Shown one piece after another: positions 26,738 to 34,235 of a stretch of DNA of 64,000 nucleotides. The DNA comes from Acaryochloris thomasi RCC1774. GTDB lineage: Bacteria > Cyanobacteriota > Cyanobacteriia > Thermosynechococcales > Thermosynechococcaceae. Under the pieces are notes generated by a model that saw only the letters and a program-made list of their open reading frames with translations, made no database searches and was not told where the DNA came from. The stretch covers positions 489,308 to 553,307 of the forward strand of contig NZ_PQWO01000001.1 in the NCBI RefSeq assembly GCF_003231495.1, in the 5' to 3' direction. The first letter of the stretch is position 1. Each line of letters begins with the position of its first letter. The position numbers and the translations under genes were made by a program.

Positions 26738-28168
26738 CTAGCCCCTGGGCGCTTCAGTAATGGTGGTCCATTCTGTGTGGAAGCTACCGTCTTTATCGAC
26801 GCGCTCGTAGGTGTGGGCACCAAAGAAGTCGCGCTGAGCCTGCGTCAGGTTCTGAGGCAAATGCTCACGCCGATAGGAATCAAAGTAATCAAGGGAGGCG
26901 CTAAAGGCAGGCACCGGCACCCCGATCTTGGCAGCGGTTGCCATCACTTCTCGCCACGCTTCTTGGCGATCTAAAATCGTCTGCTTAAACTCAGGTGCAA
27001 GCAGCAGATTGGAGAGGTTCGGATCATCAGAGAACGCTTTCTTGATCTTGTCTAGAAAGCCCGCTCGAATAATGCAGCCGCCTTTCCAAATGCGGGAAAT
27101 CTCGCCCAGATCGAGATTAAAGCCAAACTCCTTAGAAGCCGCGCCCATCAGCGCCATGCCCTGAGCGTAGGAGCAAATCTTAGAGCAGTACAGCGCATCC
27201 CGAACCTGATTGACAAAGGTCTGCTGATCGCCGTCATATTTCGCTGTGGGGCCTGACAGAATCTTCGAGGCTGCAATGCGCTCATCTTTGTAAGACGAAG
27301 CAATGCGCGCATTCACCGCTGCCGTAATGGTGGGAATGGGCACGCCCAGCTCTAGGGCGCTCATCACGGTCCAGCGGCCTGTGCCCTTTTGACCGGCTTT
27401 ATCCATAATCACGTCCACCAATGGCTTTTTGGTGTCAGGATCAATGTAGGTGAAGATCTCGGTTGTGATTTCAATCAAGAATGAATTTAGCTCATCCGTC
27501 TTGTTCCAGTCGGCAAAGACATCGTGCAGCTGAGCCGCCGTCAGCCCCACAGATCGGAGTAAATCGTAGGCTTCAGCAATGAGCTGCATGTCGCCATATT
27601 CAATGCCGTTGTGAACCATCTTGACGTAGTGACCTGCGCCCCCTGGACCGATATAGGTCACACAGGGACCGTCATCAACTTGAGCAGCAATCTTGGTCAG
27701 AATCGGCTCAAGATCGGTATAGGCTTCTTGAGTACCACCCGGCATTAGACTGGGGCCATTAAGTGCTCCTTCTTCGCCACCGCTGACGCCCATGCCAATA
27801 AACCGTAGGCCGTCTGCCTCTAACTCTTTGGTGCGACGAACCGTATCTTCGTAGAGAGAGTTACCGCCGTCAATGAGGGCATCGCCAGGCGAAAGCAGGG
27901 GCTTGAGCTGTTGAATAACGGCATCAACCGGGCCACCGGCTTTGACCATGATTACAATTCGGCGAGGCTGCGCGAGGGATTCCACCAATTCTTCTGGGGA
28001 ATAGGTGGGCTTGATATTTCGACCCGCAGCGCGCTCTTTCATAAACTCGTCGGTCCGAGAGGCGGTGCGGTTGTACACGGCGACGGGGAAGCCATTGCGT
28101 TCCACGTTGAGAGCGAGATTTTCACCCATCACGGCAAGGCCGATCAGACCAAATTGTTGCTGAGACAT
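26738..28168 (-). CDS. gnd: 6-phosphogluconate dehydrogenase (decarboxylating)
   Basis: GLIGLAVMGENLALN NADP-binding motif and full-length conservation (476 aa). Confidence 0.95.
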   Translation of the reverse strand: MSQQQFGLIGLAVMGENLALNVERNGFPVAVYNRTASRTDEFMKERAAGRNIKPTYSPEELVESLAQPRRIVIMVKAGGPVDAVIQQLKPLLSPGDALIDGGNSLYEDTVRRTKELEADGLRFIGMGVSGGEEGALNGPSLMPGGTQEAYTDLEPILTKIAAQVDDGPCVTYIGPGGAGHYVKMVHNGIEYGDMQLIAEAYDLLRSVGLTAAQLHDVFADWNKTDELNSFLIEITTEIFTYIDPDTKKPLVDVIMDKAGQKGTGRWTVMSALELGVPIPTITAAVNARIASSYKDERIAASKILSGPTAKYDGDQQTFVNQVRDALYCSKICSYAQGMALMGAASKEFGFNLDLGEISRIWKGGCIIRAGFLDKIKKAFSDDPNLSNLLLAPEFKQTILDRQEAWREVMATAAKIGVPVPAFSASLDYFDSYRREHLPQNLTQAQRDFFGAHTYERVDKDGSFHTEWTTITEAPRG

Positions 28169-28274
28169 CGGTGGACTTCCTTCGGAACACGTTCGCCTTC
28201 AGCCTAGCTTGATCCCCTTGGTGGCTGATGGGTGTGAGATTAAAACACTCTTGAGATTTCCTGAAATATTGCGG

Positions 28275-28968
28275 CTAAGGCTCTTTAAGTGCCTGCTTAA
28301 GCTGCGGTAGAGTTCTGTCGTATTTTTGTAATCTTGCTCGATCCTGAACCGTGGGTGCTGCAATGCGGCTGAGATCCATGTTGTCTGTCATATCGACAAT
28401 TTTGACGCGTAGCGCCATCTGATTGGCAATCACGCGCTGTAAGTAGTCGTCCCTGAAAAACCTCATTAGCCCATATATCACCAGCCTTTCAGGCACTAAA
28501 ATGTGGATCTAAATTGCAAGTAAATTCGCTGCCCCTTGCAAAAACTGGTGAAATGGCGCTTTTCTTAATTGCTTGAAGCCCCCAATCCATGTGTTTGCAC
28601 AAATCTATGTGCTCCAAATCGGGTCTCCAGAAGCTCTGATATACAGGGGCCGCAGCAAAATACCTTCAAAATGCAAGGGGTTTTTCAGGGACGACTAAGT
28701 AGGTTTCGTAGGCTTCAGCTTCTCGTTTCGTGATCGCATCAATGGCCGCAACGATGCGATCAGGGAAGCCGGCCCGTCGTAGCTCAGTCAACGTTAATTC
28801 AGAGTCTTCTACAGCATCGTGGAGAACGCCCACAATTTTGTCAGGGGTTGTGGACAATTGCTGCATGACTCTTAAGGGATGGCTGATATAAGGCTGTCCG
28901 GCTTTATCAACTTGACCTGCGTGGGCTTGGTGGGCGAGGTTAATAGCCGTCTGCAACAGATCAACCAT
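28275..28968 (-). pseudogene. Small HD-domain ((p)ppGpp-hydrolase/SpoT-HD-like) gene split by an inserted inverted-repeat element
   Basis: The upstream piece (28666-28968) carries ...PYISHPLRV...VLHDAVED...LTKREAEAYETYL and then runs 9 codons into the insert to a stop. The downstream piece (28275-28496) resumes inside the insert and then reads ...QRVIANQMALRVKIVDMTDNMDL, matching the conserved KLADRLHNM region. Confidence 0.55.
28444..28700. mobile_element. MITE-like insertion bounded by 19-bp perfect terminal inverted repeats (TAGTCGTCCCTGAAAAACC)
   Basis: The IR is at 28444-28462 and its exact reverse complement at 28682-28700. The ~219-bp AT-rich interior has no ORF. It interrupts the HD-domain reading frame. 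Confidence 0.5.
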
Positions 28969-29737
28969 GATCGAAGGACTGCATCAGCTCAGGCGTGAGG
29001 TCTTGAACGTTATTGAGAGTTGCGATCGCACCCACTTCCTTCAACTTCTGCGCATACTCTGGCGAATCTTGAGCATGGGGCGGCAGCACACCTACACCGA
29101 TCCAGTTGATGTTGGGATATTGCGATCGCGCATTAATCACCGTTTGAATATCTGCCACCGTGTCGCCCACATAAAAAACAGTCAGTGACAGATTAGAATC
29201 CTGCCCCTCTCGCAGAGTCTCGACAGTCGCCATCAGCCCTGTAGGATCGGGTTTGCCGGGAGCATCCTCCATTGCCACCAGTACCGGAGACTCTAGCTCT
29301 AGCCGATGCTCTAAAACATAGGAAGCAGAACCACGCGTCGCTCCACTAAAAAAACCCCAGGCAATATTCGCTTGCGTGAGCTGTTCTAAATAGGCACGGG
29401 TCATGAGCAGCGGTTCATTTTGGATGTAGCCGGAGAAATCCTGCCCCCGATAGCGGCTTTGAAAAAAATCAACCAGGGCAGAGTAGTCAATCGTGGGTCG
29501 CTCTAAATTTTGGGCTTTGCAAAAACGATAAACTAGCTCTTCAGAAGCCTTCCAGTCATTGTTCCAGCAGCCTTCTGCCTTGAGTGCATCAATCTCTGCC
29601 ATCGTGGGCCGGTACTGACCTTGGGTAAATTGTTCGACGGTGTCAGCCAATGCTCGCCGATAGGAGCCTGCAACATCGCGCACAACACCATCAATATCAA
29701 AAACGACCATTAGTGCCCGAGATTGAGAATCCTGCAT
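28961..29737 (-). CDS. HAD-superfamily hydrolase
   Basis: Motif I MVVFDIDGVVRDV and motif IV FYVGDTVADI. Confidence 0.7.
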   Translation of the reverse strand: MQDSQSRALMVVFDIDGVVRDVAGSYRRALADTVEQFTQGQYRPTMAEIDALKAEGCWNNDWKASEELVYRFCKAQNLERPTIDYSALVDFFQSRYRGQDFSGYIQNEPLLMTRAYLEQLTQANIAWGFFSGATRGSASYVLEHRLELESPVLVAMEDAPGKPDPTGLMATVETLREGQDSNLSLTVFYVGDTVADIQTVINARSQYPNINWIGVGVLPPHAQDSPEYAQKLKEVGAIATLNNVQDLTPELMQSFDHG

Positions 29738-29859
29738 GTTAATGATTAAGAACAGATCGCCATCATGCTACATCACTGACGTTTTCTCGTAGTCGAGACA
29801 CCCTGAATGCGTTAAAATTGATGTCGTTCAATACGCAGTTTTAAGTTCTGGAGGTTTGA

Positions 29860-32813: not shown

Positions 32814-32852
32814 CTGCATTGGCCCCCCCGGCCCCCAAATTCTGGGGGGAGA
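32814..32852. repeat. GC-homopolymer palindromic repeat, copy 1 (ctgcatt-G/C-ccccccggccccc-aattctgggggga)
   Basis: Shares about 35 of 39 positions with the copy at 34014-34052 in the same orientation. It is internally near-palindromic (CCCCCC...AATTCT...GGGGGG). Confidence 0.7.
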
Positions 32853-32959
32853 GATATACCTGTGACGTTCAAACCGGTAAGTTCTGCATTGTTGAGGTCT
32901 TGCCGATGTTCATGGAACTCCTTTAGAGTTCTGTCGTTGCAGCCTTCAGGTGTTGGGGG

Positions 32960-33718
32960 ATGAGTCAGAGTGCAAACATCTCGCCTATTCATCTTTGGTG
33001 TTTGCACGGTAATTTACAGCAGCCTAGCGTTTGGGAAACGGCTCTGAGAGATCTTTGGCGAGACCCAGCGATCAGGGTTATTCCGGTGGATTTGTGGTCA
33101 ACGACGGCTCAGGATTTTTGGGGTTGGGCAGAGCAGTTCTGTGAACGGGTGGTGGCTGAGGGAGCCAGTCGCAATGTAGTGTTGGGCTACTCTTTGGGTG
33201 GACGGTTGGCCCTCCATGCAGTGCTGCAAAATCCGGGGTTGTGGAAGGGTGCGATCGCAACCAGCACATCCCCTGGTCTCTCTAGTTTTAAGGACCGTCA
33301 GGCCTGTCTTCAGCGCGATCGAATCTGGGGCCAACGCTTTAGAACAGAACCGTGGCAAGCGCTCCTAAATGAGTGGGATAACCTACCCGTTTTTAATGGC
33401 ATTCCCTGCAACATTGAGCGAAAGGAAAGTCAGTTTTCTCGACAGCGGATTGCGCGACTGTTCGATATTTTTTCCCAGGGCCGTCAAGAGGATTTGCTAC
33501 TTCGATTAAAAGCGCTGGAGAACCCGCCAATCTTGTATATTTCTGGGGAGCTTGATCGAAAATACTGCGCGATGGGTCGTCGTTTGGCTGAGGCGTGTCG
33601 TGGGGTGGAGTGGGTTGCGATCGCAAATGCAGGCCATCGAGTCCCGTGGGAGAACACGCCTGTATTTACGCAGGTGGTTGAACAGTGGTTGCGTCAGCTC
33701 CCAGATCAAACAAATTGA
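32960..33718 (+). CDS. Alpha/beta hydrolase, MenH (SHCHC synthase)-like
   Basis: LWCLHGNLQQPSVWE and the nucleophile elbow GYSLGGRLAL. The overall length and pattern match the MenH-type family. Confidence 0.5.
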   Translation: MSQSANISPIHLWCLHGNLQQPSVWETALRDLWRDPAIRVIPVDLWSTTAQDFWGWAEQFCERVVAEGASRNVVLGYSLGGRLALHAVLQNPGLWKGAIATSTSPGLSSFKDRQACLQRDRIWGQRFRTEPWQALLNEWDNLPVFNGIPCNIERKESQFSRQRIARLFDIFSQGRQEDLLLRLKALENPPILYISGELDRKYCAMGRRLAEACRGVEWVAIANAGHRVPWENTPVFTQVVEQWLRQLPDQTN

Positions 33719-34013: not shown

Positions 34014-34052
34014 CTGCATTCGCCCCCCGGCCCCCCAATTCTGGGGGGAGAA
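34014..34052. repeat. GC-homopolymer palindromic repeat, copy 2
   Basis: ctgcattcgccccccggccccccaattctggggggagaa. It is in direct orientation to copy 1 and inverted relative to copy 3, which lies 145 bp downstream. Confidence 0.7.
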
Positions 34053-34194: not shown

Positions 34195-34235
34195 ACTCTC
34201 CCCCCAGAATTGGGGGACTGGGGGGCAGTGCAAGA
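34195..34235. repeat. GC-homopolymer palindromic repeat, copy 3 (inverted)
   Basis: ctcccccccagaattgggggactggggggcagtgcaag, the reverse-complement orientation of copies 1 and 2. Together with copy 2 it frames a ~220-bp hairpin-capable element. Confidence 0.65.

What the first reader, a model, noticed from the sequence alone, without database searches (positions are those of the whole stretch)
28275..28968. HD-domain (SpoT-HD/Mesh1-like) gene split by a 257-bp element with 19-bp perfect terminal inverted repeats
The N-terminal 91 codons carry the HD catalytic motif and then read 9 codons into an insert to a stop. A second ORF restarts within the other inverted repeat and continues into the conserved ...VKIVDM.DNM... 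region.

The insert (28444-28700) is bounded by TAGTCGTCCCTGAAAAACC and its exact reverse complement, a MITE-like structure.

This is either a fresh pseudogenisation of a small alarmone hydrolase or an excisable element. If active, the 19-bp IR defines a previously uncatalogued MITE family for this genome.
Basis: seen in the sequence. Interest (0 to 1): 0.55.

Follow-up and report, generated by a model that had tools for sequence, protein, structure and literature searches.

The report
MITE insertion splitting an alarmone-hydrolase gene
A 250-base non-autonomous transposon (a MITE with the ends of a widespread IS5-family insertion sequence) has landed inside a small alarmone-hydrolase gene of the cyanobacterium Acaryochloris thomasi and broken it, which is an ordinary, well-understood kind of event.

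Summary
A 250-bp element (28446-28695) has perfect 17-nt terminal inverted repeats and is flanked by a perfect 6-bp target-site duplication, TAAGTA. It interrupts a minus-strand HD-domain gene.

Removing 256 bp restores a 145-aa ORF. This ORF aligns end to end with uninterrupted orthologs in other cyanobacteria, including one locus with the same HAD / HD / 6-phosphogluconate-dehydrogenase gene order.

The 17-mer is not a local palindrome. It is the conserved end of a 1.35-1.6 kb IS5-family insertion sequence (NCBIfam NF033578; annotated relative ISGlo4) found in many phyla, with the same TA-NN-TA 6-bp duplication. Two further ~250-bp elements with the same ends and a related left half occur in other cyanobacteria.

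The broken gene is most similar to Aph1, the (p)ppApp-specific small alarmone hydrolase (PDB 7SMG). It is much less similar to Mesh1.

The insertion separates the His/Asp metal ligands from the C-terminal Asp/Asn/Arg residues, so the gene is a recent pseudogene.

Three things could not be tested: the copy number in this genome, the presence of a transposase partner there, and excision.

Verdict: a correct reading of an ordinary feature; a new member of a known kind; low interest.

The parts
28446..28695 (.). MITE proper: 250 bp, 45% GC, no transposase coding capacity.
   Evidence: Boundaries come from the TIRs and TSD. The six-frame translation has only short ORFs, and none matches any of 5.8e9 database proteins. 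There is no Rfam match. The single strand folds with z = -4.6, closed by the TIR stem.
28446..28462 (+). Left terminal inverted repeat, GTCGTCCCTGAAAAACC.
   Evidence: It is identical to the ends of full-length IS5-family elements in other genomes.
28679..28695 (-). Right terminal inverted repeat: GGTTTTTCAGGGACGAC on the + strand, the same 17-mer on the - strand.
28440..28445 (.). Left copy of the target-site duplication, TAAGTA.
   Evidence: A direct repeat at offset 256. It fits the TA-NN-TA flank consensus of 122 ends.
28696..28701 (.). Right copy of the target-site duplication, TAAGTA. On the minus strand it reads TAC TTA, encoding Tyr90-Leu91 of the gene.
28696..28968 (-). 5' part of the aph-like HD gene, codons 1-91. 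It carries D21, H30, H50-D51 and E54-D55.
   Evidence: Pfam HD_4. Alignment with orthologs and Aph1. As it stands, the frame reads 9 more codons into the MITE and stops at 28666-28668. This 100-aa product is what GenBank annotates for A. thomasi RCC1774 (P0020).
28275..28439 (-). 3' part of the aph-like HD gene, codons 92-145 plus the stop. It carries D107, N111 and R116.
   Evidence: It corresponds to almost all of the C-terminal segment (Aph1 Y90-E143, i.e. Y87-Q140 here) used to define the Aph family.
28961..29737 (-). Upstream HAD-type hydrolase gene (TIGR01548). Its stop overlaps the HD start by 8 bp, so the two are probably co-transcribed.
   Evidence: The same arrangement is seen in L121.
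26738..28168 (-). Downstream 6-phosphogluconate dehydrogenase gene (gnd), a conserved neighbour.
   Evidence: The same neighbour is seen in L121-L125.

Best explanation
[quoted passage not shown] It is 250 bp long, non-coding, and carries the 17-nt ends recognised by the DDE transposase of a widespread IS5-family insertion sequence (NCBIfam NF033578; ISGlo4-like).

Inferred mechanism: a transposase supplied in trans cut the element out at its inverted repeats and inserted it into a TA-NN-TA site (TAAGTA) inside the small HD-domain alarmone-hydrolase gene of Acaryochloris thomasi RCC1774. Repair of the staggered cut duplicated the 6-bp target.

Consequences for the gene:
- It is an Aph1-type probable (p)ppApp hydrolase lying between a HAD hydrolase gene and gnd.
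- It is now split after codon 91, with a frameshift and a stop 9 codons into the element.
- The N-terminal fragment keeps three metal/catalytic motifs (H30, H50-D51, E54-D55).
- The C-terminal fragment keeps D107, N111 and R116.
- Neither fragment alone should be active, so the gene is a recent pseudogene.

Shown here: the anatomy (TIR, TSD, frame restoration), the empty site in orthologous loci, identity of the ends with autonomous IS5 elements elsewhere, and the family of the broken gene.

Inferred, not shown: trans-mobilisation by an IS5 transposase in this genome, loss of enzyme function, and recency.
For: Anatomy:
- 19/19 IR, 17-nt TIR and 6-bp TSD; removing 256 bp restores a 145-aa ORF.

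Empty sites:
- P0001 and P0002 are intact 145-aa genes (77% and 74% identity).
- L121 has the same HAD / HD / 6PGD order and the same 8-bp overlap.
- The DNA alignment shows one clean 256-bp gap, exactly at TAYCTA in the relatives.

Ends match an autonomous IS:
- Twelve pairs of ends 1355-1597 bp apart look like complete elements. Ten carry one 422-473-aa ORF; in L052 and L054 that ORF is broken.
- Perfect 6-bp TSDs flank six full-length elements (TAACTA, TATTTA, TAGATA, TACTTA, TCAATA, TATCTA) and three small ones (TATTTA, TACATA, TAGCTA).
- The ORF scores 497 bits on NF033578, IS5 family transposase.
- 37 loci have a transposase homolog within 400 nt of the 17-mer.
- Annotated relatives ISGlo4 and a Leptospira IS5 have near-identical ends; the Leptospira copy has the TSD TATTTA.
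- The flank logo reads T83 A99 n n T99 A99, out of 122 ends.

This IS group makes small derivatives:
- L113 (462 bp), L035 (516 bp) and L046 (589 bp) are internal-deletion copies.

Same MITE type elsewhere:
- L004 (249 bp, TSD TAACTA) and L128 (249 bp, TSD TATCTTA) are in HIP1-rich cyanobacterial DNA.
- They are 60-68% identical to each other and to the window copy over the left ~100 nt beyond the TIR.

Gene family:
- HD_4 and the TIGR00691 N-terminal region.
- Aph1 7SMG: E 2e-32, ungapped over residues 4-140, 43% identity. The Aph1 specificity residues D24 and R119 are conserved as D21 and R116.
- The restored protein has the conserved residue at all 32 columns that are invariant in the 16-sequence alignment that includes it, so there is no sign of decay.
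Against: - Only one copy is present in the 64-kb window, and there is no transposase homolog in the window.
- No A. thomasi transposase appeared among the best 120 of 8000 IS5 hits. This is uninformative rather than negative.
- No database protein contains a MITE-encoded peptide, and there is no plasmid match. So there is no positive evidence that this exact element is multi-copy anywhere.
- Apart from 17-25 nt at the ends, the element shares no detectable sequence with the full-length IS copies retrieved. Descent from that IS by internal deletion is therefore not shown.
- The three ~250-bp elements are only 56-58% identical overall. Their right halves (40-46%) are barely above what an optimised alignment of unrelated DNA might give.
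- The draft assembly (160-bp paired reads, 20x) was not re-examined.
Confidence: 0.92

Rival explanations
1. The repeat is a local palindrome or hairpin that arose in place (for example a structured regulatory insert), not a mobile element.
For: There is only one copy in the window. The single strand folds well (z = -4.6).
Against: - The element is flanked by a perfect 6-bp direct repeat, and the offset is exactly what restores the frame.
- Orthologous loci have an empty site.
- The 17-mer and the TA-NN-TA flank recur at the ends of IS5 elements in more than 100 loci from many phyla.
Confidence: 0.01
2. The element is a self-splicing or programmed-excision element (a group I/II intron, or a developmentally excised element like the heterocyst nifD/fdxN/hupL elements), so the gene stays functional.
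For: It sits inside a conserved coding sequence whose flanks show no other lesion.
Against: - No Rfam family, intron or otherwise, matches at E <= 1.
- The insert is 256 bp, not a multiple of 3, and brings in-frame stops.
- It encodes no recombinase or maturase.
- TIR plus TSD is the signature of DDE transposition.
- From established knowledge, the known cyanobacterial excision elements are kilobases long and encode XisA/XisC/XisF-type recombinases.
Confidence: 0.02
3. The element is a still-active MITE, and the insertion is reversible: precise excision through the 6-bp repeats would make the hydrolase gene switch on and off in the population.
For: The TIRs and TSD are perfect and the ORF is otherwise intact, so precise loss of 256 bp would fully restore the gene.
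Against: - There is no evidence for a transposase partner or for other copies in this genome.
- From general knowledge, DDE cut-and-paste excision usually does not restore the target precisely, and TSD-mediated precise excision is rare.
- Nothing suggests selection for switching.
Confidence: 0.05
4. The insertion is an assembly artefact: a mis-join through a repeat in the short-read draft.
For: The genome is a 20x draft from 160-bp paired reads.
Against: A chimeric join would not create a perfect 6-bp target duplication that matches the family's TA-NN-TA consensus, nor an insert whose removal restores the reading frame exactly. The element is also shorter than a read pair's span.
Confidence: 0.01

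Closest known systems
IS5-family insertion sequences of the NCBIfam NF033578 type (annotated relatives: ISGlo4 of Trichlorobacter lovleyi pGLOV01; unnamed IS5 copies on Leptospira plasmids)
   Same: - The terminal 17 nt are identical or nearly so (ISGlo4 GTCGTCCCTGAAG... / ...CTTTTTCAGGGACGAC; Leptospira GTCGTCCCTGAAAAAGG).
- The 6-bp TSD and TA-NN-TA target are the same.
   Different: - Those elements are 1.35-1.6 kb and encode a 420-470-aa DDE transposase. This one is 250 bp with no coding capacity.
- Its interior has no detectable similarity to them.
Prokaryotic MITEs, including cyanobacterial ones (Nezha; Microcystis MITEs; MITE inactivation of the Anabaena mcy genes), as reviewed in PMC10969869
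   Same: Small size, TIRs, TSD, no transposase, a stable fold, and insertional inactivation of a gene.
   Different: - It has different ends and a different presumed IS partner.
- Multi-copy status, typical of MITEs, is not shown for this genome.
The ~250-bp elements in Leptolyngbyaceae UHCC 1019 (L004 1363-1611) and in metagenome contig Ga0209172_10000594 (L128 6656-6904)
   Same: - Same length (249-250 bp), same left TIR, and a 6-7-bp TA..TA TSD.
- Shared conserved blocks in the left ~115 nt, such as AAATYGCAAGNAA and CCCTTG.
   Different: - They are only 56-58% identical overall.
- Their right TIRs are degenerate (3-5 mismatches), whereas the window copy has perfect ends.
Aph1, the (p)ppApp-specific small alarmone hydrolase of Bacteroides caccae (PDB 7SMG; PMC10083569)
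   Same: - Single-domain HD protein of about 145-149 aa.
- 43% identity, ungapped across the whole length, with the HD motif conserved.
- Specificity residues D24 and R119 are conserved as D21 and R116.
   Different: - Aph1 is prophage-encoded, next to a (p)ppApp-synthetase toxin. The cyanobacterial gene sits between a HAD hydrolase gene and gnd with no toxin nearby.
- Its activity is untested, and here the gene is disrupted.
Mesh1 / SpoT hydrolase domain
   Same: Same HD_4 fold family and the same catalytic motifs.
   Different: The similarity is much weaker (Mesh1 E 1e-3 to 1e-4, Rel/SpoT about 1e-10, against 2e-32 for Aph1).

Membership tests
MITE (non-autonomous DDE-transposon derivative) | Small size (tens to a few hundred bp) with no transposase gene | tested here: met
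   The element is 250 bp. The longest open stretch between stops is 58 aa, and no six-frame segment matches any protein.
MITE (non-autonomous DDE-transposon derivative) | Terminal inverted repeats | tested here: met
   17-nt perfect TIR (19 nt counting the TA of the TSD).
MITE (non-autonomous DDE-transposon derivative) | Target-site duplication flanking the element, with an empty site in related genomes | tested here: met
   TAAGTA on both sides. There is a clean 256-bp gap relative to L121 and L124.
MITE (non-autonomous DDE-transposon derivative) | Ends shared with an autonomous IS that can supply the transposase | tested here: met
   The 17-mer is identical at the ends of 1.35-1.6 kb IS5-family elements in other genomes. 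Presence of such an IS in A. thomasi itself was not testable.
MITE (non-autonomous DDE-transposon derivative) | Multiple copies in the host genome | not testable with these tools
   One copy is present in the 64-kb window.
IS5 family, NF033578 / ISGlo4-like group (as the source of the ends) | Conserved terminal sequence GTCGTCCCTGAAAAA... | tested here: met
   17/17 at both ends; compare.
IS5 family, NF033578 / ISGlo4-like group (as the source of the ends) | 6-bp (occasionally 7-bp) TSD at a TA-N2-3-TA target | tested here: met
   The window has TAAGTA. Nine other complete elements have perfect 6-bp TSDs, and L007 and L128 have 7-bp TSDs.
IS5 family, NF033578 / ISGlo4-like group (as the source of the ends) | Interior derived from the IS by internal deletion | tested here: not met
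   BLASTN finds only 18-25 nt at the ends. By contrast, L113, L035 and L046 align over hundreds of nt with the IS.
Aph family of (p)ppApp hydrolases (the disrupted gene) | HD-domain small alarmone hydrolase with the HD motif | tested here: met
   HD_4 at 28.2 bits against a 27.2 cutoff. H50-D51 is invariant.
Aph family of (p)ppApp hydrolases (the disrupted gene) | Homology over the C-terminal ~53 residues (Aph1 Y90-E143) that the authors used to separate Aph from (p)ppGpp hydrolases | tested here: met
   The alignment to 7SMG is ungapped through residues 4-140, E 2e-32.
Aph family of (p)ppApp hydrolases (the disrupted gene) | Specificity residues D24 and R119 of Aph1 | tested here: met
   D21 and R116 are invariant in 16 sequences.
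Aph family of (p)ppApp hydrolases (the disrupted gene) | Selective hydrolysis of (p)ppApp over (p)ppGpp | not testable with these tools
   This needs an enzyme assay of the restored protein or of an intact ortholog.
Self-splicing intron | Conserved intron RNA structure, with splicing that restores the reading frame | tested here: not met
   No Rfam match at E <= 1 in 27500-29800. TIR and TSD are present instead.

The most novel reading that the evidence does not exclude
The ~250-bp elements in the window, L004 and L128 could be a distinct cyanobacterial MITE lineage. Their conserved left half is unrelated to the IS and might carry a function of its own, such as transposase-binding or regulatory sequence. 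The window copy, with perfect ends, could still be mobile in A. thomasi, cross-mobilised by an ISGlo4-like IS5 transposase. The Aph-type (p)ppApp hydrolase gene would then be a reversible, naturally occurring knock-out in a phylum where (p)ppApp metabolism has not been studied.
Probability: 0.06. Interest if true: 0.45.

Novelty: new member of a known kind. Interest (0 to 1): 0.2.

Why it matters
The practical value is mostly for annotation.
- The two ORFs 28666-28968 and 28275-28496 should be annotated as one pseudogene carrying a mobile-element insertion. GenBank currently names the 100-aa fragment 'GTP pyrophosphokinase'.
- The intact orthologs are probably (p)ppApp hydrolases, not (p)ppGpp synthetases.

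Two minor points of wider use:
- The 17-nt end GTCGTCCCTGAAAAACC with a TA-NN-TA 6-bp duplication is a compact, very conserved signature. It locates this IS5 group and its small derivatives across many phyla.
- A. thomasi RCC1774 appears to be a natural null for an Aph-type hydrolase that is conserved next to gnd in many cyanobacteria. This could help anyone asking what (p)ppApp turnover does in cyanobacteria.

Tried and rejected
- **Rfam** at permissive threshold on 27500-29800: nothing. An intron or structured-RNA reading was dropped.
- **Promoter/terminator scan** of 28100-29100: no promoter-like site, and one terminator-like site outside the element. This is no more than in shuffles, so no case for an outward promoter or polar terminator.
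- **Plasmid collection** searched with the 250-bp element (distant mode): no match.
- **Exact-protein look-ups**, to find the source contig, alternative assemblies or other copies: P0020, the 42-aa internal ORF, Gnd and the HAD protein are none of them on record. A. thomasi is therefore not in that index.
- **Transposase homolog search**, to spot an A. thomasi partner: 8000 hits, and none of the best 120 is named A. thomasi. Uninformative.
- **Concatenated six-frame peptides of the element** against 5.8e9 proteins, to catch genes elsewhere that read into copies: no hit at E <= 10.
- **Literature search** for the TIR sequence and for ISGlo4: only unrelated primer hits, or nothing.
- **Alternative parse**, a 19-nt TIR with a 2-bp TSD (AG): rejected. 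In L101 the duplicated 6-mer is TCAATA, so TA is not part of the element's end.
- **TA dinucleotide TSD (IS630/mariner-like)**: rejected. A 252-bp removal does not restore the frame.

Full report
**1. What is in the sequence**

Arms 28444-28462 and 28679-28697 form a perfect 19-nt inverted repeat 216 nt apart. It is the only perfect IR of that length within 2.5 kb anywhere in the window.

Two ORFs lie on the minus strand. ORF 28666-28968 (100 aa) carries an HD motif. ORF 28275-28496 (73 aa) continues into ...VKIVDMTDNM....

A direct repeat, TAAGTA(G), lies at 28440 and again at 28696, an offset of 256. Deleting 256 bp gives one ORF of 145 aa.

The element proper is therefore 28446-28695 (250 bp, 45% GC). 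It has 17-nt TIRs (GTCGTCCCTGAAAAACC) and a 6-bp target-site duplication. The outer TA of each 19-nt arm belongs to the duplication.

**2. Source**

The 100-aa N-terminal ORF is identical to a GenBank protein of Acaryochloris thomasi RCC1774 on a 605,849-bp contig (P0020). That is the length of the longest contig of the published draft: 72 contigs, 5.93 Mb, 160-bp paired reads at 20x (PMC6002478). The window has 37 HIP1 octamers (GCGATCGC), as expected for a cyanobacterium.

**3. Empty sites**

The restored protein finds 1887 homologs. Nearly all of the best are cyanobacterial single-domain proteins of 141-207 aa (the 100-aa P0020 is this locus's own truncated fragment), several of them from Acaryochloris.

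The two closest, P0001 (77%) and P0002 (74%), are 145 aa. In L121, P0001 lies between a HAD hydrolase gene and a 6-phosphogluconate dehydrogenase gene, with an 8-bp overlap with the HAD gene. This is the window's arrangement exactly.

The DNA alignment shows a single clean 256-column gap in the relatives. It falls where they read TAT CTA or TAC CTA and the window reads TAC TTA on either side of the insert. The two ORFs are thus one gene split by an insertion.

**4. The ends belong to a widespread IS**

These came from cyanobacteria, Planctomycetota, Nitrosomonas/Nitrosospira, Xanthomonas cissicola, Nitrospinota, Ca. Kuenenia, Bacteroidota and others. Many matches lie about 110-125 nt from a contig end, as expected for a repeat that breaks assemblies.

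Allowing up to 3 mismatches at the second end gave twelve pairs of ends 1355-1597 bp apart, together with several smaller pairs and one 3105-bp pair. Perfect 6-bp duplications flank six of the full-length elements (L038 TAACTA, L052 TATTTA, L054 TAGATA, L100 TACTTA, L101 TCAATA, L103 TATCTA) and three small ones (L033 TATTTA, L041 TACATA, L113 TAGCTA).

Ten of the twelve full-length elements carry one ORF of 422-473 aa; in L052 and L054 that ORF is broken. The L038 ORF scores 497 bits on NF033578 (IS5 family transposase), and Pfam finds DUF772 plus DDE_Tnp_1_6.

In 37 of the 120 loci a homolog of this transposase lies within 400 nt of the 17-mer. Over 122 ends the outward flank reads T(83) A(99) n n T(99) A(99).

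Annotated relatives are 'IS5-like element ISGlo4 family transposase' on T. lovleyi pGLOV01 and IS5 copies on Leptospira plasmids. Their ends are GTCGTCCCTGAAG... and GTCGTCCCTGAAAAAGG. The Leptospira copy has the TSD TATTTA.

L101, whose duplication is TCAATA, shows that TA is target and not part of the element end. This rules out the parse with a 19-nt TIR and a 2-bp TSD.

**5. Small derivatives and the window's MITE type**

L113 (462 bp), L035 (516 bp) and L046 (589 bp) align over hundreds of nt with full-length copies, so they are internal-deletion derivatives.

The window element shares only 18-25 nt at each end with any retrieved IS.

Two further elements of the same size share its left TIR and conserved blocks over the left ~115 nt:
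- L004 1363-1611, Leptolyngbyaceae UHCC 1019, TSD TAACTA.
- L128 6656-6904, a JGI metagenome contig, TSD TATCTTA.

The three are 60-68% identical in the left part and 56-58% identical overall. Both loci are HIP1-rich and have no transposase within 8-10 kb. The two relatives have degenerate right TIRs, whereas the window copy's ends are perfect.

**6. The broken gene**

Pfam gives HD_4 (28.2 bits, cutoff 27.2). NCBIfam matches the N-terminal hydrolase region of RelA/SpoT.

The best solved structure by far is 7SMG, Aph1, the (p)ppApp hydrolase of Bacteroides caccae: E 2e-32, ungapped over residues 4-140, 43% identity. Rel/SpoT hydrolase domains score about 1e-10, and Mesh1 scores 1e-3 to 1e-4.

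The Aph1 paper defines the family by the C-terminal segment Y90-E143. [quoted passage not shown] These correspond to D21 and R116 here, both invariant in a 16-sequence alignment.

The insertion falls after Y90-L91, three residues after the start of that C-terminal segment. It separates D21, H30, H50-D51 and E54-D55 from D107, N111 and R116. Neither fragment should be active; this is an inference.

The restored protein shows the conserved residue at all 32 columns that are invariant in the alignment that includes it. Together with the perfect TIRs and TSD, this argues for a recent event.

**7. What was not found**

- No second copy and no transposase in the window.
- No Rfam family.
- No promoter- or terminator-like site in the element.
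- No plasmid match.
- No protein anywhere containing a peptide encoded by the element.
- No A. thomasi entry among the best 120 transposase hits.
- The A. thomasi genome is absent from the contig index.

Copy number, a transposase partner and excision in this genome therefore remain untested. The element was assembled through from 160-bp reads inside a 606-kb contig. This suggests, weakly, that it is not highly repeated in this genome.

**8. Comparison with what is known, and verdict**

MITEs are common in bacteria, cyanobacteria included, and MITE inactivation of genes is documented, for example the Anabaena mcy genes (review PMC10969869).

This is a textbook case: TIRs, a TSD, an empty orthologous site, and ends shared with a catalogued IS5-family group. 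What is new is the particular ~250-bp element type and its placement in an Aph-type hydrolase gene.

Novelty: a new member of a known kind. Interest: low (0.2).

Noticed in passing
window 32821-32853, 34021-34051, 34196-34226: Three copies (two direct, one inverted) of a ~30-nt G/C-rich repeat, GCCCCCCGGCCCCC(C/A)AATTCTGGGGGGAGA. Each contains the near-palindrome CCCCCAGAATTGGGGG. All are intergenic, around ORF 32960-33718. The scan found 3 matches against 0.04 expected. This may be a REP-like or other small repeat family.
   Followed up: partly
L040 3993-4034; L046 436-1024: In two loci the 6-bp flanks of the IS5-type ends are inverted rather than direct (TATGTA / TACATA and TAGTTA / TAACTA). 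L040 is just two TIRs back to back, 42 bp in all. This could reflect recombination between copies or a hairpin-type rearrangement.
   Followed up: no
L100 2477-4067: Two copies of the full-length IS lie head to tail and share a single TACTTA between them, suggesting tandem insertion or a tandem dimer.
   Followed up: no
L007 1219-4323; L128 6656-6904: Some members of the group have 7-bp duplications (TATGTTA, TATCTTA), so the target is TA-N2-3-TA rather than strictly 6 bp.
   Followed up: partly
window 28961-28968; L121 4001-4008: The HAD hydrolase (TIGR01548) stop and the aph-like start overlap by 8 bp, both here and in a 77%-identical relative. gnd follows about 110 bp downstream in five loci. 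This conserved HAD / aph / gnd arrangement hints at a link between (p)ppApp turnover and sugar-phosphate metabolism.
   Followed up: partly
window 28666-28968 (GenBank product, P0020): Public sources name the truncated 100-aa fragment and many intact orthologs 'GTP pyrophosphokinase'. None has a synthetase domain. They are single HD_4 hydrolase domains closest to Aph1.
   Followed up: yes
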